Shown: positions 14,883-21,091, counted from the first letter of the stretch. The stretch: 64,000 nucleotides of DNA from an uncultured Actinomycetota bacterium (GCA_963716965.1 CAVQUZ010000001.1:524061-588060), one strand, 5' to 3'. The notes: a model not told the origin generated them from the letters alone. Numbers and translations are program-made.

Positions 14883-15995
14883 TCAGGGGCGCGGGTCGAT
14901 GATCTCCGCCTCCGCGAGCAGGGCCAGATCGCGCAGCAGGGTCACGTCGACGTCGCTCGCGTTCCTCGGGTACTGGTCCCAGACGCAGAGGGTGCCGATT
15001 CGATAGCCGTCGAGCGACTCGATCGGGTGACCGGCGTAGAACCGGACCCCGCCCGGTCCCTGCATCATCGAGTTGCCGGCGAATCGAGGGTCGAGTGCGG
15101 TGTCGAGCACGACGAAGGGCTCGGGAGAGCGAACCGTCAGGTTGCAGATGCTCTTCTCCCGCGGCACGTCGTCATGGCTGCCGGTCGACGCGATGCGCAC
15201 GATCCGGTCGCGATCGATCAGGTTCACCTCGGCGTTCGAGGCCCCGAAGGCGTCCCTGGCGATGGTCGCGACCTGCTCGAGTCGGCCTGCACCGAGCCGC
15301 GCGCCCGCCGCGTTCTCGTCGACGGCGTGCTGGCGGTCGGGCTCGGGCACGGCGAAGTCCCGGTCGTCGCGGGTCGCGACCTGCGGGCGCCACTCGGCGC
15401 CCCTCGTCAGCTCGTCGACGATGAGATCCGCGCACCCGACCGTGTCGAATTCGGCACCGGACGTCGTCGGATGCAGCGGTGCGGTCAGCCAGACCAGGCG
15501 CCGGTCGACGACCGGCAGTTCATCGGTGACGAGCCGCTCCAGCCCCGGTCCGGTCGACGCGTGCCGGCCGGCGAGCCGCGGCGCCGGCGGCACGAGCACG
15601 GACACGACCGGGCAGTTCTCGGACACCTGGCCGAGCACCTCGGCGATCAGCCGCACGAACTGGCGTCGCAGCAGACGGGCCGCCGGCCCCGGCGGCGTGT
15701 CGTTGAGCACCGCCACAACCACCTCGTAGCGCCACAGCCGCCAGGAGTCGAAGGCGCCCCGCACCGCCTCCAGCACGGGCTTGAGGTCCCAGAGCACGTC
15801 GAGGTCCACGCCTCTGCCGGTCGCGATCGCGACCCGATCGGCCACCAGATCGGGTAGCCAGCGGCCCGCGCCGAAGCGCGACGGATCGAGCACGGCGGCA
15901 TCGGCGATCATGAGCACACGCGCTGCGTGGACCCCGGTCCGGTGCAGGCGGCCGATGTGCAGCCGCCCGATCCTGCCGAGTTCGTCGCCCTGCAT
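14883..15995 (-). CDS. GAF domain-containing protein with an uncharacterised N-terminal region of about 230 aa
   Basis: The C-terminal 150 aa carries a GAF signature (ASNAEVNLIDRDRIVRIASTGS ... SICNLTV ... FVVLDTALDPRFAGN ... VRFYAGHPI ... IGTLCVWD). The N-terminal two thirds have no recognisable motif. The start is uncertain (ATG 15995 or 16031). Confidence 0.65.
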   Translation of the reverse strand: MQGDELGRIGRLHIGRLHRTGVHAARVLMIADAAVLDPSRFGAGRWLPDLVADRVAIATGRGVDLDVLWDLKPVLEAVRGAFDSWRLWRYEVVVAVLNDTPPGPAARLLRRQFVRLIAEVLGQVSENCPVVSVLVPPAPRLAGRHASTGPGLERLVTDELPVVDRRLVWLTAPLHPTTSGAEFDTVGCADLIVDELTRGAEWRPQVATRDDRDFAVPEPDRQHAVDENAAGARLGAGRLEQVATIARDAFGASNAEVNLIDRDRIVRIASTGSHDDVPREKSICNLTVRSPEPFVVLDTALDPRFAGNSMMQGPGGVRFYAGHPIESLDGYRIGTLCVWDQYPRNASDVDVTLLRDLALLAEAEIIDPRP

Positions 15996-16087
15996 CACGC
16001 CCCCTCGAGCCCGCTGCGCGCGCCGGCGCACCGGCGCTCAGCAGCACTGTACGCCGCAGGGGCCACGCGGCGACGACCCGCTGCCGG

Positions 16088-17821
16088 TCACCCGAACGTG
16101 AAGGAGTAGGCGCCGACGCCGTGCCCGACGGTCACGTCGATGGTGCCCGAGTGCGGTCCGTGCAGGGTGTCGAGCAGGTAGGACCTCGGCGTGCCGGAGA
16201 CCGTGATCGTCTTCGCGGGACCGCCGTCGACCCGCACGCGGATCGTGCCGGAGCCGCCGAGCACCATCCGCACCTGGCTCGTCGCCGTGTACTTCAGGCG
16301 GATGTCGCCGTCGGCGCCGGACGGGGTCGCGTTCTGGAATCCGACCGTCCACGAGCCGTCGAGCGCGAACGTGTTCGCGGCCTGCGCGGCGGGCAGCGCG
16401 AACGTCTTGGTGGCGGCCGTGTACGGTCCGTCGCCGCCGTAGTTCTGCACCTTGCCGGCGCTCAGGTACGTCTCCGGCGTGGTCGCGCCGGCCTTCGGGG
16501 TGTCATCGGCGACCTCGGTCGCAGGCGGCAGATGCACGCCGGGGTTCGCCGCCGTGAGCAGCTGGCGGATGAGCTGCTCGGTGTTCGCGTAGTCGCCCTC
16601 GCCGAACTGGATGTTGCGGACCGTGCCCGTCGAGTCGATCAAGTAGTGCGCCGGCCAGTAGCGGTTGCGGTAGTTCGTCCACGTCGCCAGGTCGTTGTCG
16701 AGCGCGACCGGGTAGGTGATGCCGAGTGCTTTCGCGCCGGACTCGACATTGCTCTGCACCTTCTCGAACGCGTACTCGGGGGAGTGGATGCCGATGATCT
16801 GCAGGCCGTCCTTCGCGTACGCCTTGTTCCAGGCGACCACGTGCGGGACGGAGCGCTGGCAGTTGATGCACGAGTACGCCCAGAAGTCGACGAGCACGAC
16901 CTTGCCCCGCTCCTGCTTCAGCGTCACGGGGGCGTCGCCCGGCGTGTTGAACCACGCGCTGATGCCCGTGATGTCCGGCGCCGTCCCGCACGACTCGAGC
17001 TTCGTCGCGTCGTTCGTGCATTTCGAGAGGTCCTTGTTCTGCGCGTTCACGAGGCCGCCGAGATCGAGCGCTTCGTCGACCTGCTGCGAGCCGCTGAATC
17101 GGTCCTGGAGCGCGCTCGTGTAATCGGGGATCGCGGTCTGCAGCAACTGCGGCAGATTGAAGACCAGCCCGACGGCGAGCGCGAGCATGGCGACGCCGCC
17201 CGCGATGCGCACACCGTGCTGATGCTTGCGGAACGACTTGACACGCTCGGCGACCCTGCGGCCCGCGAGCGCGAACACGAGCAGCGGGATCGCCGCGCCG
17301 ATCGCGAAGCTCGCGGTGAGCACGACCGTGTCCCAGCCGATGTGCCCGGTCGAGCCCGCGACGGTGATCGCCGCGAGCACCGGACCGGCGCAGGGCACGT
17401 AGACCGCTCCGAGCGCGAGTCCGAGCACGAAGCCGTTCCGCCCGGTGCCCACGCTCTTCATGGGGATGCGGGAGAACGGCGCCTCGAGCAGTTGCTCGAT
17501 CCGCGGCACGATGAGCCCGACGCCGATGAGGGTCAGTACGACGATCCCCGCCCAGCGCAGCACGTCCTGGGGGAGGTGCAGCAGCGCGAGCAGCGACGAG
17601 CCGATCAGCGCGACCGAGCTGAAGCTGATGACCAGGCCGGCGATCACGAGGAACGGCCGCCAGCGCGACACCGGCTTCACCGCCGGGTCGCCCGTCCGTG
17701 CGCTGTTCGCGCCGCCCGAAAGGAAGATGACCGGGAGCACCGGGAGGATGCACGGCGAGATCCCCGTGATGAGTCCGCCGAGGGACCCGATGAGCAGCAG
17801 CGAGATGAGCATGTCTCTCAT
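16088..17821 (-). CDS. dipZ: DipZ-like cytochrome c-type biogenesis protein: CcdA/DsbD membrane domain fused to a thioredoxin-like domain and a C-terminal beta domain
   Basis: The N-terminal CcdA domain has its two Cys (GISPCILPVLPV ... YVPCAGPVLAA). A redoxin domain follows with WAYSCINCQRS, then a C-terminal extension. The long ORF beyond 17821 is antisense read-through of the fasciclin gene. Confidence 0.85.
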   Translation of the reverse strand: MRDMLISLLLIGSLGGLITGISPCILPVLPVIFLSGGANSARTGDPAVKPVSRWRPFLVIAGLVISFSSVALIGSSLLALLHLPQDVLRWAGIVVLTLIGVGLIVPRIEQLLEAPFSRIPMKSVGTGRNGFVLGLALGAVYVPCAGPVLAAITVAGSTGHIGWDTVVLTASFAIGAAIPLLVFALAGRRVAERVKSFRKHQHGVRIAGGVAMLALAVGLVFNLPQLLQTAIPDYTSALQDRFSGSQQVDEALDLGGLVNAQNKDLSKCTNDATKLESCGTAPDITGISAWFNTPGDAPVTLKQERGKVVLVDFWAYSCINCQRSVPHVVAWNKAYAKDGLQIIGIHSPEYAFEKVQSNVESGAKALGITYPVALDNDLATWTNYRNRYWPAHYLIDSTGTVRNIQFGEGDYANTEQLIRQLLTAANPGVHLPPATEVADDTPKAGATTPETYLSAGKVQNYGGDGPYTAATKTFALPAAQAANTFALDGSWTVGFQNATPSGADGDIRLKYTATSQVRMVLGGSGTIRVRVDGGPAKTITVSGTPRSYLLDTLHGPHSGTIDVTVGHGVGAYSFTFG

Positions 17822-17984
17822 TCGGAGCGGGGGTCCGCGAGGACGGGGTGCCGGCGCGGAACCTGTGCATCGTCCGCGCGCCGCGCATCCGCACCAATCC
17901 GGTTGCGGCCTCGCCGACGAACACACCGCAATCGAGCCGATCGCACCAGGCGGAAGGCATTCGTTCCCAGTAGGAGAAGTTCTG

Positions 17985-18647
17985 ATGCGATTCACACGCA
18001 CATCCATCGCGGCGGTGTCGCTCGCTGCGGCGGTCGGGCTCGGCCTCGCCGGCTGCTCGACCCCGTCGACGCCGGCCAGCACCGCCACCCCGAAGGCGAT
18101 GACGACCACCGCGCCGTCGACGCCGTCGATGCAGAGCGCCGAGTTCAAGGACCTCGTCGGTCCGGGCTGCGCCGCGTATGCCAAGACGGTGCCGACCGGC
18201 GCCGGTTCCATCACCGGCATGTCGCAGGACCCGGTCGCGGTCGCCGCGAGCAGCAACCCGCTGCTCACCACGCTCGTGAAGGCCGTCTCGGGCAAGTTGA
18301 ACCCGAAGGTGAACCTCGTGAGCACGCTCGACGGGAGCGACTTCACCGTGTTCGCCCCGGTCGACAGTGCGTTCGCGAAGCTGCCGGCATCGACCGTCGC
18401 CGCGCTCGCCAAGCCGGCGAACGCCGCCATGCTGACGAAGATCCTCACGTACCACGTGGTGCCGGGCCAGATCCTTCCTGACGCGATCGACGGCATGCAC
18501 ACGACCGTCGAGGGCGGCTCGGTGAACGTCACCGGTTCGGGTGACTCGATCAAGGTCGACGGCGCGAACGTGGTCTGCGGTGGCGTCCACACGGCGAACG
18601 CCACCGTGTACCTGATCGACTCCGTCCTGACGCCCCCGGCGAAGTGA
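17985..18647 (+). CDS. Fasciclin (FAS1) domain lipoprotein, MPT70/MPT83-like
   Basis: ATG after an AGGAGAAG RBS. It has a signal peptide with an LAGC lipobox and a Thr/Pro-rich linker. A FAS1 domain follows (TVFAPVDSAFAKLP ... LTYHVVPGQI ... TVYLIDSVLTP). Confidence 0.85.
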   Translation: MRFTRTSIAAVSLAAAVGLGLAGCSTPSTPASTATPKAMTTTAPSTPSMQSAEFKDLVGPGCAAYAKTVPTGAGSITGMSQDPVAVAASSNPLLTTLVKAVSGKLNPKVNLVSTLDGSDFTVFAPVDSAFAKLPASTVAALAKPANAAMLTKILTYHVVPGQILPDAIDGMHTTVEGGSVNVTGSGDSIKVDGANVVCGGVHTANATVYLIDSVLTPPAK

Positions 18648-18702
18648 CCCGAGGACCGGGGCCGAGGCGGTAGGTTCAGCACCTGCCCCTGGCCCCGGTC
18701 CC

Positions 18703-19365
18703 GTGGTATTCGACCAATCCGATGCACCGAACGTCTCCGAACAGGAGACATCGGACGGAAAGAAACCGGGGGACGAGGTGGATGCGGTCGTGGTGGACAC
18801 CGACGAGGAGCAGGACGCGGCGCAGCCGCTGGACCTGTTGCTCGCTCGCTGCGCCGACCGCGACCGGACCGCGTTCGCCGCGTTGTACGACCGCACAGCG
18901 GCGCGGGTGTTCGCACTCGTGCTGCGCGTGCTCCGTGATCACGCACAGGCCGAGGAGGTGACGCAAGAGGTGTATCTCGAGATCTGGCAGAGCGCTTCGC
19001 GCTACGAGCCCAACCGTGGAGCGGCCCTGCCGTGGATGATCACCATGGCACATCGTCGTGCCATCGACCGCGTCCGCGCCTCACAGGCCGGCCGCGACCG
19101 CGACATGCGCATCGGCGTCCGTGACTGGTCGCCCGACGTCGACGTCGTCGCCGAGCACGTCGAGATCGCCATCGAGAGCGAGCGCGTCGCCGCGGCGCTG
19201 CAGCGGCTCACCCGTCTGCAGCGCGAGGCGATCACGCTCGCGTACTTCGGTGGATATTCCCAGAGCGAGGTCGCCGGTCATCTCCAGGTGCCGATCGGTA
19301 CCGTGAAGACCCGTCTACGAGACGGCCTCATCCGGCTCCGCGACGAATTGGGGGTGACGCAATGA
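18703..19365 (+). CDS. sigK: ECF sigma factor, SigK-like
   Basis: 220 aa with sigma-70 region 2 (AFAALYDRTAARVFALVLRVLRDHAQAEEVTQEVYLEIWQ) and region 4 (LTRLQREAITLAYFGGYSQSEVAGHLQVPIGTVKTRL). Its 3' end overlaps the anti-sigma gene. Confidence 0.85.
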   Translation: MVFDQSDAPNVSEQETSDGKKPGDEVDAVVVDTDEEQDAAQPLDLLLARCADRDRTAFAALYDRTAARVFALVLRVLRDHAQAEEVTQEVYLEIWQSASRYEPNRGAALPWMITMAHRRAIDRVRASQAGRDRDMRIGVRDWSPDVDVVAEHVEIAIESERVAAALQRLTRLQREAITLAYFGGYSQSEVAGHLQVPIGTVKTRLRDGLIRLRDELGVTQ

Positions 19366-20138
19366 CCGACGACGAGCAGGCCGCCGCCGCCGCCGGGAGC
19401 GGCGCCTACGCGCTGAACGCGATGTCCGCGACCGAGCGCACCGCGTACGAGCGGCTCATCGCGGAGTCCGAGGACCTGCGCGCCGAGACCACCGGGCTCA
19501 CCGACACCGCTGCCGAACTGGGGCTCGCCCTGACGCCGGTCGCGCCGCCCGCATCGCTGCGCGGACGGCTCCTCGACCTCATCGACGGGCAGGACTCCGA
19601 CGAGAGGACACCCGAGGCGCAGCCCGCACCCCGGATCGCGACCCGGTCGCTCGCGATGCCGGCGGGCGAGCACCTGGTCCCGCGCCGACGTGCCCGCCGG
19701 CCACGGCGTGGCGTCATCGCGCTGCTGGTCGCAGCGGTGGTGGCGATCGGCGTGATCGGCGTCGGCGTGCCCATCGCGCAGCAGGCCGCGCAGGTCGCGG
19801 TGCAGGCGTCCGCCGTCGCGCGCATCCGTGCCGCGGCCGACGCGCAGCAGTCCACCGCGCACCTCACGAACGGCGGTGCCATGACGGTCGTCTGGTCGCG
19901 TTCACTCGGTGAAGCCGCCGTGGACCTCACGCGCGCTCCGTCGCCTGCGGCCGGCCGCACCTACGAGCTCTGGTACATCGGCCCGTCGGGGATCCGCGCG
20001 GCCGGCACCACCGATGGTGCCGCCGTCGCCCTCACCGGCCGGCTGAGCCGGGGCGACCGGATCGGCATCACGGTCGAACCCGACGGGGGCGTCGTGCGAC
20101 CGACCTCGGCGCCCATCGGGCTCGTCGACCCGGTCTGA
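19362..20138 (+). CDS. rskA: Anti-sigma-K factor RskA (single-TM anti-sigma)
   Basis: ATGA overlap with sigK. It has an N-terminal anti-sigma domain (YALNAMSATERTAYERLIAESEDLRAE), a central TM (VIALLVAAVVAIGVIGV) and a C-terminal RskA periplasmic domain (TYELWYIGPSG). Confidence 0.8.
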   Translation: MTDDEQAAAAAGSGAYALNAMSATERTAYERLIAESEDLRAETTGLTDTAAELGLALTPVAPPASLRGRLLDLIDGQDSDERTPEAQPAPRIATRSLAMPAGEHLVPRRRARRPRRGVIALLVAAVVAIGVIGVGVPIAQQAAQVAVQASAVARIRAAADAQQSTAHLTNGGAMTVVWSRSLGEAAVDLTRAPSPAAGRTYELWYIGPSGIRAAGTTDGAAVALTGRLSRGDRIGITVEPDGGVVRPTSAPIGLVDPV

Positions 20139-20143
20139 GCGGC

Positions 20144-21091
20144 CTACCAGTCCTCGTCCTCGCCGATCGCGTCGATCTCGTCGAGGATCCGCGCGAGGGT
20201 GAGCGCGTGGGCGGTGAGCCGCTCCTGCGCGGGCGTGGAGGGCACGAGTTCCGGGATCCGGGTGGCCGGATCGACCGGGACGAGCGAGATGAGACCCCGG
20301 ATCGCCGGCATCGGCGCTCCGGCGTCGTTCGTCCGCACCTCGACCGCCACGTGGACCGTGCCGCTCCCGGTCGCCGCCACCCGTGACTCGACGTCCACCG
20401 GGGCCTGCGGCCGGAACTCGCGGGCGAGTTGGGTGCCGATCGCCTGCGTGGCCCGCATCGGCGCGCCCGTGAGCACCGAGCCCGCCGCGAGCGCGCCGTC
20501 GTGGATCCACCGCAGCAGCCGCCCGCCGGCGACCGCGCGGTCCGAGGTCAGGTCCTCCGAGGTCACGAGATGCGCGTGCACGCCCCCTGCGGCGTCGACG
20601 GGCAGCGGATCGGCGTTCCGGAGTGCCGCCCGGACCGCCGAGCGCGCCTCCGCCCTGCGACCGGCGCGGTCACCGAGTTCGAGGTTGGCGATGCTGCTCG
20701 GCTCCCAGGCCGGGACCTCGGCCGGATCGCCGGCCGCATCGGTCGCGACGTAGATCAGGAAACACGTCGCGATGGCGGGCGCAAGGCCGTCGGCCGCCCC
20801 ACTCGCGATGCGGATCAGCACCTGCACGGTGGTCCGGCCGGTCTGGACCACTCGCGCTTCGGCGTCGACCCATTCGCCCTCGACGGGTCGGAGGAACCGG
20901 ATCTCGCCGACGTGCACGAGCAGGCACGGCAGCCCGGCCCACGCGGTCGCGCAGGCGCGGCCGATGCGGTCGGCCCACTCGAGCACGGTGCCCGGCTCGA
21001 CCGGTGAGCCCGACGCGTCGCTCGCCCGGAAACGACGGGTGACACGATCGCGGGCGGCGTGGGGCTCGGCGTCGAACGAGGTGATGGGCAT
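20144..21091 (-). CDS. Acyl-CoA thioesterase with tandem hotdog domains
   Basis: 315 aa with two repeated 4HBT-like halves (RFLRPVEGEWVDAEARVVQTGRTTVQVLIRI and HAHLVTSEDLTSDRAVAGGRLLRWIHDGA). Confidence 0.7.
   Translation of the reverse strand: MPITSFDAEPHAARDRVTRRFRASDASGSPVEPGTVLEWADRIGRACATAWAGLPCLLVHVGEIRFLRPVEGEWVDAEARVVQTGRTTVQVLIRIASGAADGLAPAIATCFLIYVATDAAGDPAEVPAWEPSSIANLELGDRAGRRAEARSAVRAALRNADPLPVDAAGGVHAHLVTSEDLTSDRAVAGGRLLRWIHDGALAAGSVLTGAPMRATQAIGTQLAREFRPQAPVDVESRVAATGSGTVHVAVEVRTNDAGAPMPAIRGLISLVPVDPATRIPELVPSTPAQERLTAHALTLARILDEIDAIGEDEDW

What the first reader, a model, noticed from the sequence alone, without database searches (positions are those of the whole stretch)
16088..20138. 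Compact SigK / RskA / fasciclin (MPT70/83-like) / DipZ cluster
A divergent pair holds a DipZ-type CcdA-thioredoxin fusion and a FAS1 lipoprotein with an LAGC lipobox. An ECF sigma of SigK type and its single-pass anti-sigma RskA follow directly, with an overlapping stop/start. In Mycobacterium tuberculosis the SigK regulon (mpt70, mpt83, dipZ) is split between two chromosomal sites. Here regulator and targets are contiguous, which makes this a neat natural test case for SigK-promoter definition. The 18648-18702 and 17822-17984 intergenic regions should hold the SigK-dependent promoters.
Basis: partly seen in the sequence, partly recalled or inferred. Interest (0 to 1): 0.55.

Follow-up and report, generated by a model that had tools for sequence, protein, structure and literature searches.

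The report
SigK–RskA–MPT83–DipZ gene cluster, ordinary
This is a real but ordinary copy, in a Microbacteriaceae genome, of the SigK/RskA sigma–anti-sigma pair sitting beside its known targets (an MPT83-like fasciclin lipoprotein and DipZ), an arrangement that is already described and common in actinobacteria.

Summary
All four genes are real and correctly identified: DipZ (16088-17812, -), an MPT83/MPT70-type fasciclin lipoprotein (17985-18647, +), SigK (+) and a single-pass RskA (19362-20138, +) with an ATGA stop/start overlap.

A promoter model trained only on other genomes finds two outstanding SigK-type promoters in the 64 kb window. They read CCAATCC-N17-CGAAC and score 25-26 bits; the next best site scores 12.7. 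One lies upstream of the fasciclin gene (17893-17924).

dipZ has only a degenerate site: a good -10, CCGAAT, 7 nt before ATG 17812, but an eroded -35. It scores 5.9 bits against a median of 18 in 79 relatives.

The host is Microbacteriaceae, not a mycobacterium. Contiguity of regulator and targets is not special. Of 54 assessable DipZ-anchored metagenome loci, 40 carry sigK, and the mpt83-sigK-rskA cassette was described in 2008.

This SigK lacks the M. tuberculosis redox cysteine pair, as do all ~125 related SigKs examined.

Verdict: new member of a known kind, low interest.

The parts
16088..17812 (-). dipZ: a six-TM CcdA-like domain, an extracytoplasmic thioredoxin-like domain (CINC motif) and a C-terminal Thioredoxin_10/CBM-like domain. 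The likely start is ATG 17812; ATG 17821 is the alternative.
   Evidence: Pfam hits. PDB DipZ 2HYX/5CYY, E~1e-121. Six hydrophobic segments. The start is inferred from the CGAAT-N7-ATG geometry shared with relatives and mycobacteria. The two residues between the ATGs are not conserved in L082.
17818..17848 (-). Degenerate SigK-type promoter of dipZ. The -10 is CCGAAT, 7 nt before ATG 17812, which implies a leaderless mRNA. The -35 is eroded to CCGTCC.
   Evidence: PWM total 5.9 bits (-35 = -4.2, -10 = +10.0), rank 48 of 127,930 positions. The median for 79 relatives is 18.0. The best candidate upstream of M. kansasii mpk83 has the same CCGTCC...TCCGAATG pair.
17893..17924 (+). SigK-type promoter of the fasciclin gene: -35 CCAATCC (17894-17900), -10 CGAAC (17918-17922). 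The predicted TSS is near 17929.
   Evidence: The exact-motif search finds only two hits in the window. PWM 25.1 bits, against 12.7 for the best hit elsewhere. The site is conserved in L082 at 27.9 bits (alignment).
17985..18647 (+). MPT83/MPT70-type fasciclin (FAS1) lipoprotein, with lipobox LAGC and Cys24.
   Evidence: PF02469, E=3e-26. MPT70 1NYO, E=3.5e-59, 64% identity, both disulfide Cys kept. Signal-peptide hydrophobic segment at residues 6-26.
18647..18707 (+). GC-rich terminator-like hairpin directly after the fasciclin stop codon. It has no U-tract.
   Evidence: RNA fold -49.7 kcal/mol, z = -6.35, 0 of 200 shuffles as stable. L082 has a hairpin of different sequence at the same place (-47.8 kcal/mol, z = -7.0).
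18713..18744 (+). Autoregulatory SigK-type promoter of sigK-rskA: -35 CCAATCC (18714-18720), -10 CCGAAC (18737-18742). The predicted TSS is near 18749.
   Evidence: PWM 26.4 bits, the best hit in the window. About 60 of 80 Microbacteriaceae loci have the same motif upstream of sigK. It is conserved in L082.
18778..19365 (+). sigK (ECF19-type sigma factor), 195 aa from GTG 18778, with RBS GGGGGACGAGG.
   Evidence: NF007228 at 267.6 bits against a cut-off of 226. 4NQW_A E=2.5e-49. Homologues are 198-199 aa and begin at this point. L082 has -1 and +13 nt indels within 18703-18777.
19362..20138 (+). rskA: an N-terminal cytoplasmic anti-sigma domain, one TM helix (residues 114-143) and an extracytoplasmic RskA_C domain. 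It is translationally coupled to sigK through an ATGA overlap.
   Evidence: PF10099, E=5e-17. NF052375 at 149 bits against a cut-off of 100. Hydropathy; overlap.

Best explanation
This is a SigK-RskA envelope-signalling module with two of its classical targets placed next to it, in a Microbacteriaceae chromosome.

Proposed mechanism:
1. RskA is a single-pass membrane anti-sigma factor. It holds SigK through its cytoplasmic N-terminal domain (inferred from the M. tuberculosis system).
2. An unknown extracytoplasmic signal frees or activates SigK (inferred).
3. SigK-RNA polymerase then starts transcription at two strong CCAATCC-N17-CGAAC promoters.
   - One drives the MPT83-like fasciclin lipoprotein. 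Its transcript largely ends at a strong hairpin.
   - The other, immediately after that hairpin, drives sigK-rskA. This gives positive autoregulation, with the anti-sigma factor co-produced through translational coupling.
4. DipZ is a CcdA-thioredoxin electron transporter thought to manage disulfides of exported proteins such as the two-Cys fasciclin. It is transcribed divergently, probably as a leaderless mRNA from ATG 17812.
5. The dipZ promoter keeps the SigK -10 but has lost the conserved -35 A residues. Its SigK dependence here is therefore weak or lost.

Shown: gene identities, motif positions, their conservation and the hairpin. Inferred: binding, induction, transcription start sites and DipZ's substrate.
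For: Gene identities.

Promoters:
- A PWM was built from 28 sigK-upstream sites of other genomes. It picks exactly two outliers in the 64 kb window, at 26.4 and 25.1 bits; the next best is 12.7.
- In a 12.5 kb M. kansasii locus, the same PWM ranks the sites upstream of dipZ (27.2) and mpk70 (25.2) first.
- In an M. tuberculosis-complex contig, its two best hits lie just upstream of dipZ (14.9) and mpt70 (13.2). The mpt70 promoter region is reported as SigK-dependent.
- The literature states that SigK sites are conserved across Actinobacteria (PMC7509140).
- About 60 of 80 Microbacteriaceae sigK loci have the motif upstream of sigK.
- Both window promoters, the RBS and GTG 18778 are conserved in relative L082.

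Other features:
- The hairpin is present in the window and, with a different sequence, in L082.
- RskA has a single TM segment, preceded by an Arg-rich stretch.
Against: - No transcript or binding data exist for this organism.
- Both strong window promoters have a 17-nt spacer, not the commoner 16-nt one. A minority of relatives share the 17-nt spacing.
- SigK lacks the Cys133/Cys183 pair used for redox sensing in M. tuberculosis. Part of the mycobacterial mechanism therefore cannot apply.
- The dipZ promoter assignment is weak: 5.9 bits, a score reached by 7% of random 232-nt pieces of the window.
- The window and L082 are 84% identical across the dipZ-fas intergenic region. Conservation there has little footprinting power.
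Confidence: 0.85

Rival explanations
1. One reading: dipZ, the fasciclin gene and sigK-rskA are all SigK-dependent, and dipZ is driven by the CCGTCC-N15-TCCGAAT site at 17848-17818.
For: - The -10 CCGAAT scores 10.0 bits. It sits exactly 7 nt before ATG 17812. The same leaderless geometry occurs at canonical dipZ promoters in L083, L084, L089, L090, L092, L112 and in mycobacteria.
- CCGAAT-N7-ATG is kept in L082.
- The best candidate upstream of M. kansasii mpk83 has the same CCCGTCC / TCCGAATG pair at the same spacing. The literature reports a putative SigK site upstream of that gene.
- In M. tuberculosis, dipZ has its own SigK-dependent promoter (PMC9861118).
Against: - The -35 scores -4.2 bits.
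- Among about 200 SigK-type sites in relatives, the -35 core is CAATCC, CCATCC or CAAACC in 172. None is CCGTCC.
- The total of 5.9 bits compares with a median of 18 for 79 relatives. Only 5 of 79 score below 8.
- ECF sigma factors usually depend strongly on the -35 element (general knowledge).
Confidence: 0.4
2. dipZ has been uncoupled from SigK in this lineage. It is transcribed constitutively from an unrecognised housekeeping promoter, and the CCGAAT is only a relic.
For: - The -35 is eroded both in the window and in its closest relative L082. In L082 a CAAACC element sits 4-5 nt too far from the -10.
- The PWM score lies within the random background.
Against: - No sigma-70-type promoter was found in 16000-20300, although that scan suits high-GC actinobacteria poorly.
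- The -10 and the leaderless spacing are retained.
Confidence: 0.45
3. The sigma factor is a SigK-like paralogue of another ECF group, and the neighbouring fasciclin and dipZ genes are there by coincidence.
For: - The Cys pair said to be conserved in ECF18/19 is absent.
- 79 of 80 Microbacteriaceae sigK-rskA dyads have no fas or dipZ within 6 kb.
Against: - The SigK-specific NCBIfam model passes its curated cut-off. Of the 25 families listed, the only other one to pass is the generic ECF superfamily model TIGR02937.
- The best PDB hit is M. tuberculosis SigK at 171 bits, against 87 bits for the next.
- An RskA_C anti-sigma factor lies directly downstream.
- The promoter motif matches the mycobacterial SigK sites.
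- The fas and dipZ pair is linked to sigK in 40 of 54 assessable metagenome loci.
Confidence: 0.03

Closest known systems
Mycobacterium tuberculosis SigK-RskA regulon (Rv0445c/Rv0444c; mpt83-dipZ-mpt70, Rv2873-Rv2875)
   Same: - It has the same four protein families. SigK is 49% identical, the fasciclin is 64% identical to MPT70, and the DipZ ectodomain matches at E~1e-121.
- RskA is a single-pass protein with an RskA_C domain.
- The promoter type is the same: C(A/C)ATCC-N16-CCGAA.
- dipZ has the same leaderless geometry.
   Different: - Here the regulator and its targets are contiguous, and dipZ is divergent from the fasciclin gene rather than downstream of it.
- There is only one fasciclin gene, of the lipoprotein (MPT83) type.
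- No Rv0446c-Rv0449c-like genes are present, and no further strong SigK sites occur in the 64 kb.
- SigK lacks Cys133 and Cys183.
- The dipZ promoter -35 is eroded.
- The host is a Microbacteriaceae.
[quoted passage not shown] Rhodococcus equi and Yersinia enterocolitica
   Same: The order is fasciclin-sigK-rskA on one strand, with a SigK site upstream of the fasciclin gene.
   Different: - dipZ is attached divergently.
- There is a separate strong sigK promoter, and a hairpin lies between the fasciclin gene and sigK.
- The cassette paper itself could not be read here. The comparison therefore rests on how later papers describe it.
fas<->dipZ-sigK-rskA clusters in uncultured actinobacteria
   Same: - The same four genes are present.
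- fas and dipZ form a divergent pair.
- The promoters are SigK-type.
- SigK lacks the Cys pair and RskA is full length.
   Different: - In 32 of the 40 loci that carry sigK, sigK-rskA follows dipZ rather than the fasciclin gene. The window's order occurs in only 3 of the 40 (L087, L097, L099), plus L082.
- Those loci usually have back-to-back SigK promoters for both fas and dipZ.
Rhodobacter sphaeroides RpoE-ChrR (ECF11)
   Same: It is the second-best structural relative of the sigma factor (2Q1Z, E=1e-23). It is also an ECF sigma factor co-transcribed with its anti-sigma factor.
   Different: - Its anti-sigma factor is a soluble zinc/cupin protein, not a membrane RskA.
- Its regulon is different (singlet-oxygen response).
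- It does not match the NCBIfam SigK model.

Membership tests
SigK / ECF19 sigma factor | ECF architecture: sigma-70 regions 2 and 4 only | tested here: met
   PF04542 E=2.8e-16 and PF08281 E=2.5e-13, with no region 3.
SigK / ECF19 sigma factor | Scores above the curated cut-off of the SigK-specific model and better than other ECF families | tested here: met
   NF007228 scores 267.6 bits against a cut-off of 226. The next family scores 138.8 bits, below its cut-off of 222. The best PDB hit is M. tuberculosis SigK 4NQW, E=2.5e-49, 49% identity and gapless.
SigK / ECF19 sigma factor | RskA-type anti-sigma gene directly downstream | tested here: met
   An RskA_C protein starts at 19362 and overlaps the sigK stop codon.
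SigK / ECF19 sigma factor | Conserved cysteine pair (M. tuberculosis C133/C183) forming the redox-sensing disulfide, stated as typical of ECF18/19 (PMC7826278, PMC7509140) | tested here: not met
   The aligned residues are Ala and Glu. About 125 related SigKs from the Microbacteriaceae and metagenome loci were examined. None has Cys at either position that could be aligned; 108 of them, the window's own included, read Ala and Glu.
SigK / ECF19 sigma factor | Recognises the SigK promoter (C(A/C)ATCC-N16-CCGAA) and autoregulates | tested here: inconclusive
   The motif is present upstream of sigK (26.4 bits) and of fas (25.1 bits). It matches sites upstream of mycobacterial SigK targets. Binding and transcription cannot be tested with these tools.
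RskA anti-sigma factor | Cytoplasmic N-terminal anti-sigma domain, one TM helix and an extracytoplasmic RskA_C domain | tested here: met
   PF10099 covers residues 122-252, E=5e-17. NF052375 scores 149 bits against a cut-off of 100. A single hydrophobic segment at 114-143 follows RRRARRPRR. No PDB match was found for the N-terminal domain.
MPT83/MPT70 fasciclin antigens | Single FAS1 domain closely related to MPT70, with its two cysteines | tested here: met
   1NYO E=3.5e-59, 64% identity over 164 aa. GPGC and VVCGG are conserved.
MPT83/MPT70 fasciclin antigens | MPT83 type: lipoprotein signal peptide with a lipobox | tested here: met
   The N-terminus reads MRFTRTSIAAVSLAAAVGLGLAGC (L-A-G-C). 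The hydrophobic segment is at residues 6-26. Acylation itself is not testable.
DipZ (Rv2874) | CcdA-like membrane domain with two Cys, a thioredoxin-like CxxC domain and a C-terminal CBM-like domain | tested here: met
   DsbD_TM, Redoxin/AhpC-TSA and Thioredoxin_10 hits. 2HYX/5CYY E~1e-121. SPC, VPC and CINC motifs are in the sequence. Six hydrophobic segments.
DipZ (Rv2874) | Own SigK-dependent promoter, as reported for M. tuberculosis (PMC9861118) | tested here: inconclusive
   Only a degenerate site is present: 5.9 bits, -10 good, -35 = -4.2. Of 79 relatives, 57 score at least 15 bits.
[quoted passage not shown] | Gene order fasciclin-sigK-rskA on one strand, with a SigK site upstream of the fasciclin gene | tested here: met
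   The coordinates are 17985-18647, 18778-19365 and 19362-20138, all on the + strand. The promoter is at 17893-17924.

The most novel reading that the evidence does not exclude
This lineage (the window and L082) may be a natural regulatory variant of the SigK system. Three features mark it out.
- SigK has no redox cysteine pair although RskA is full length. That runs against the published association of Cys-less SigK with truncated RskA.
- The fasciclin and sigK promoters are insulated from each other by a hairpin.
- The dipZ promoter has lost its -35, so DipZ would be uncoupled from the regulon that it normally serves.
Probability: 0.35. Interest if true: 0.3.

Novelty: new member of a known kind. 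Interest (0 to 1): 0.2.

Why it matters
It matters little beyond annotation.

- **Annotation.** Their extra 5' stretch covers the gene's own promoter and the 3' half of a terminator-like hairpin. The dipZ start is probably three codons too early.
- **The SigK field.** The comparative data show three things:
  - The CCAATCC-N16/17-CCGAA promoter is conserved from Microbacteriaceae to mycobacteria.
  - Clustering of fas, dipZ, sigK and rskA is the rule, not the exception, outside the M. tuberculosis complex.
  - A whole actinobacterial branch runs SigK with a full-length RskA but without the redox-sensing cysteines. This qualifies published generalisations.
- **This locus.** None of this makes the locus a uniquely useful test case.

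Tried and rejected
Rejected for four reasons.
   - It lies inside the 3' arm of the hairpin at 18647-18707.
   - The promoter at 18713-18744 would then be coding sequence.
   - Homologues are 198-199 aa and begin at the position of GTG 18778.
   - L082 carries -1 and +13 nt indels in this stretch.
2. **Canonical SigK promoter for dipZ.** None was found anywhere on the - strand within 17800-18000. No - strand PWM hit lies further upstream, inside fas, among the 15 best in the window.
3. **Sigma-70-type promoters and U-tract terminators in 16000-20300.** None was found. The scan suits this GC content poorly.
4. **Published SigK consensus.** Veyrier 2008 (PMC2258859) is not held. A text search for 'CCGAAT' with 'SigK' gave only irrelevant papers. 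I compared directly with M. tuberculosis-complex and M. kansasii loci instead.
5. **Upstream region of M. tuberculosis mpt83, sought via P0127.** That protein turned out to be an unrelated metagenomic fasciclin with an internal duplication.
6. **Naming the source organism.** The contig could not be retrieved. Only family-level placement (Microbacteriaceae) is supported.
7. **PDB match for RskA.** None was found.
8. **17-nt spacer as a special feature.** Rejected, because a minority of relatives also use it.

Full report
**Observation**

- **dipZ-like gene (- strand).**
  - It has a DsbD/CcdA membrane domain (PF02683, residues 10-220).
  - It has a thioredoxin-like Redoxin/AhpC-TSA domain (residues 281-410) with a CINC motif.
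  - It has the DipZ-specific C-terminal domain PF17991 (E=8e-32).
  - Its ectodomain matches the two M. tuberculosis DipZ structures 2HYX and 5CYY at E~1e-121.
  - Hydropathy gives six membrane segments.
- **Fasciclin gene (divergent, + strand).**
  - It encodes a 220-aa FAS1 protein (PF02469, E=3e-26).
  - It has a lipoprotein signal peptide with lipobox L-A-G-C.
  - It is 64% identical to mature MPT70, with both cysteines kept.
- **Sigma factor.**
  - It passes the curated cut-off of NCBI's SigK model (267.6 bits against 226).
  - The next best family reaches 138.8 bits, below its own cut-off of 222.
  - It is 49% identical, without gaps, to M. tuberculosis SigK 4NQW.
- **Anti-sigma factor.**
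  - It has the RskA_C domain and matches NF052375 above cut-off.
  - It has one hydrophobic segment, at residues 114-143, preceded by an arginine-rich stretch.
  - Its ATG overlaps the sigK stop codon as ATGA.
- **Flanking genes.** These are unrelated: a thioesterase, a TetR regulator, a tautomerase-like protein and a hypothetical protein.

**Promoters**

By eye, CCAATCCG...CGAAC occurs upstream of the fasciclin gene and again near the sigK 5' end. The pattern AATCCG-N14-19-CGAAC occurs exactly twice in the 64 kb window, both on the + strand, against 0.21 expected.

To avoid circularity, I built a two-block weight matrix from 28 sites found upstream of sigK in other Microbacteriaceae genomes. 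The consensus is ACCAATCCG...CCGAAC. I scanned both strands of the window with it.

| Site | Score (bits) |
|---|---|
| 18713-18744 | 26.4 |
| 17893-17924 | 25.1 |
| Next best anywhere in the window | 12.7 |

The same matrix was then run on mycobacterial loci.

- In a 12.5 kb M. kansasii locus, the sites just upstream of dipZ (27.2) and mpk70 (25.2) rank first.
- In an M. tuberculosis-complex contig, its two best hits lie just upstream of dipZ (14.9) and mpt70 (13.2; ATCCATCC...CTCCGAAG).

These genes are reported to have SigK-dependent promoters (PMC9861118; PMC7509140). The motif is therefore the SigK promoter, and the window has two strong copies.

**Corrected gene starts and the stretch between fas and sigK**

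Four things show that the ORF was called too long.

- Immediately after the fasciclin stop codon, 18647-18707 folds into a hairpin of -49.7 kcal/mol (z = -6.35). Its 3' arm contains GTG 18703.
- Relative L082 (SigK 92% identical) has a hairpin of different sequence at the same place (-47.8 kcal/mol).
- Homologous SigK proteins are 198-199 aa long and begin where GTG 18778 lies.
- Between the window and L082, the stretch 18703-18777 carries -1 and +13 nt indels. The promoter, the RBS GGGGGACGAGG and GTG 18778 are conserved.

**dipZ**

On the - strand, the best site in the dipZ-fas spacer is 17848-17818, at 5.9 bits.

- Its -10 is good: CCGAAT, 10.0 bits.
- Its -35 is eroded: CCGTCC, -4.2 bits.
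- It ranks 48th of 127,930 positions in the window.
- Of random 232-nt pieces of the window, 7% reach this score.

In 79 related loci, the best site upstream of dipZ has a median of 18.0 bits. Of these, 57 score at least 15 and only 5 score below 8. Among about 200 SigK-type sites in relatives, the -35 core is CAATCC (113), CCATCC (36) or CAAACC (23). It is never CCGTCC.

Three points argue against dismissing the site.

- The CCGAAT lies exactly 7 nt before ATG 17812. Canonical dipZ promoters in several relatives and in mycobacteria have the same leaderless geometry.
- CCGAAT-N7-ATG is kept in L082, while the two codons between the alternative ATGs are not.
- The best candidate upstream of M. 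kansasii mpk83 has the same CCCGTCC / TCCGAATG pair at the same spacing.

I conclude that dipZ starts at ATG 17812 and retains a degenerate SigK promoter. Whether that promoter still works is open, at roughly even odds.

**Context**

The closest named SigK homologues are Microbacteriaceae such as Homoserinibacter, Pseudolysinimonas, Naasia and Diaminobutyricimonas, at 60-74% identity. This is not a mycobacterium.

Two surveys were run.

- **sigK-anchored, 80 Microbacteriaceae genomes.**
  - Only one (Antiquaquibacter soli, L025) has fas and dipZ within 6 kb. There the pair lies 2.2 kb downstream of rskA, with back-to-back SigK promoters.
  - About 60 of the 80 have a strong SigK site upstream of sigK.
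- **DipZ-anchored, 80 metagenome loci at 57-71% identity**.
  - 70 have a divergent fasciclin gene next to dipZ. Of the other 10, 8 lack enough upstream sequence to tell.
  - 54 have enough flanking sequence to judge sigK linkage, and 40 of those carry sigK.

| Arrangement among the 40 loci that carry sigK | Loci |
|---|---|
| sigK-rskA within 300 nt downstream of dipZ, same strand | 32 |
| sigK-rskA further downstream of dipZ, same strand | 3 |
| The window's order (L087, L097, L099) | 3 |
| Convergent | 2 |

L082 shares the window's order.

Clustering of regulator and targets is thus the norm outside the M. tuberculosis complex, and the window shows a minority permutation of it. The literature already describes an mpt83-sigK-rskA cassette with a conserved SigK site, in Rhodococcus and even Yersinia (Veyrier 2008, as cited in PMC7509140).

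**Mechanism**

By homology with M. tuberculosis, RskA sequesters SigK at the membrane. A still unknown signal frees or activates it. SigK then drives the fasciclin lipoprotein and, from a separate promoter behind the hairpin, its own operon. DipZ supplies reducing power to the cell surface.

One part of the mycobacterial mechanism cannot apply. The redox-sensing Cys133-Cys183 pair of SigK is Ala and Glu here. No Cys was seen at either position in about 125 related SigKs, nearly all of which have a full-length RskA. That qualifies two published statements:

- that the pair is conserved in ECF18/19 (PMC7826278);
- that Cys-less SigK goes with truncated RskA (PMC7509140).

This is a property of the whole clade, not of this locus.

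**Verdict**

  - The gene identities are correct, and a motif is shared by fas and sigK.
  - The sigK promoter location was wrong.
  - A dipZ promoter is not demonstrated.
  - The claim that this is a special 'natural test case' does not hold.
- This is a new member of a known kind, of low interest.

Noticed in passing
L005-L009, L017, L024, L025, L048, L053, L056, L062, L070 and most metagenome loci with dipZ-sigK tandem (e.g. L106 6027-6057); absent at window 18985-19014: In 56 of 126 related sigK genes, a strong SigK-promoter-like motif (15-26 bits) lies inside the sigK coding sequence, at codons W70-Q71-S/T72-A73...D/E77-P78-N79. All 56 use the rare Gln codon CAA there. Overall, 64 of 114 genes use CAA at that codon, against 15% at other Gln codons of the same genes (Fisher p~1e-20). 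This suggests selection for an internal SigK-dependent promoter that could give rskA-only transcripts. Rathayibacter loci have only this internal site and none upstream. The window uses CAG AGC and lacks the motif.
   Followed up: partly
window 18778-19365 and L001-L162: None of about 125 SigK homologues from Microbacteriaceae genomes and DipZ-linked metagenome loci has Cys at either M. tuberculosis redox position (C133, C183) that could be aligned. The commonest pair is Ala/Glu, then Ala/Ala. Nearly all have a full-length RskA. This runs against published generalisations for ECF18/19.
   Followed up: yes
L001 4648-5890: In Pseudolysinimonas, the genes upstream of sigK are other lipoproteins, not a fasciclin: a 165-aa cupredoxin-like protein and a 220-aa protein of unknown type. 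A second SigK-type site (23.9 bits) lies at their 5' end. The local SigK regulon therefore differs between Microbacteriaceae genera.
   Followed up: no
window 17925-17960 (fasciclin 5' UTR) and L082 147-182: A block, ATCGAGCCG(A/C)TCGCACCAGGCG, lies downstream of the fasciclin promoter and is conserved between the window and L082. Overall identity of the spacer is 84%, so the significance is unclear. It could be a 5'-UTR element or an operator.
   Followed up: no
window 17893-17924 and 18713-18744: Both strong window promoters have a 17-nt spacer between AATCC and CGAAC. Most relatives have 16. In L082, the sigK promoter has 16 (a 1-nt deletion) and the fasciclin promoter has 17. SigK seems to tolerate both spacings.
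   Followed up: partly
window 14883-16031 (-): A 382-aa ORF next to dipZ has no Pfam hit at E<=0.001. It was not examined further.
   Followed up: no
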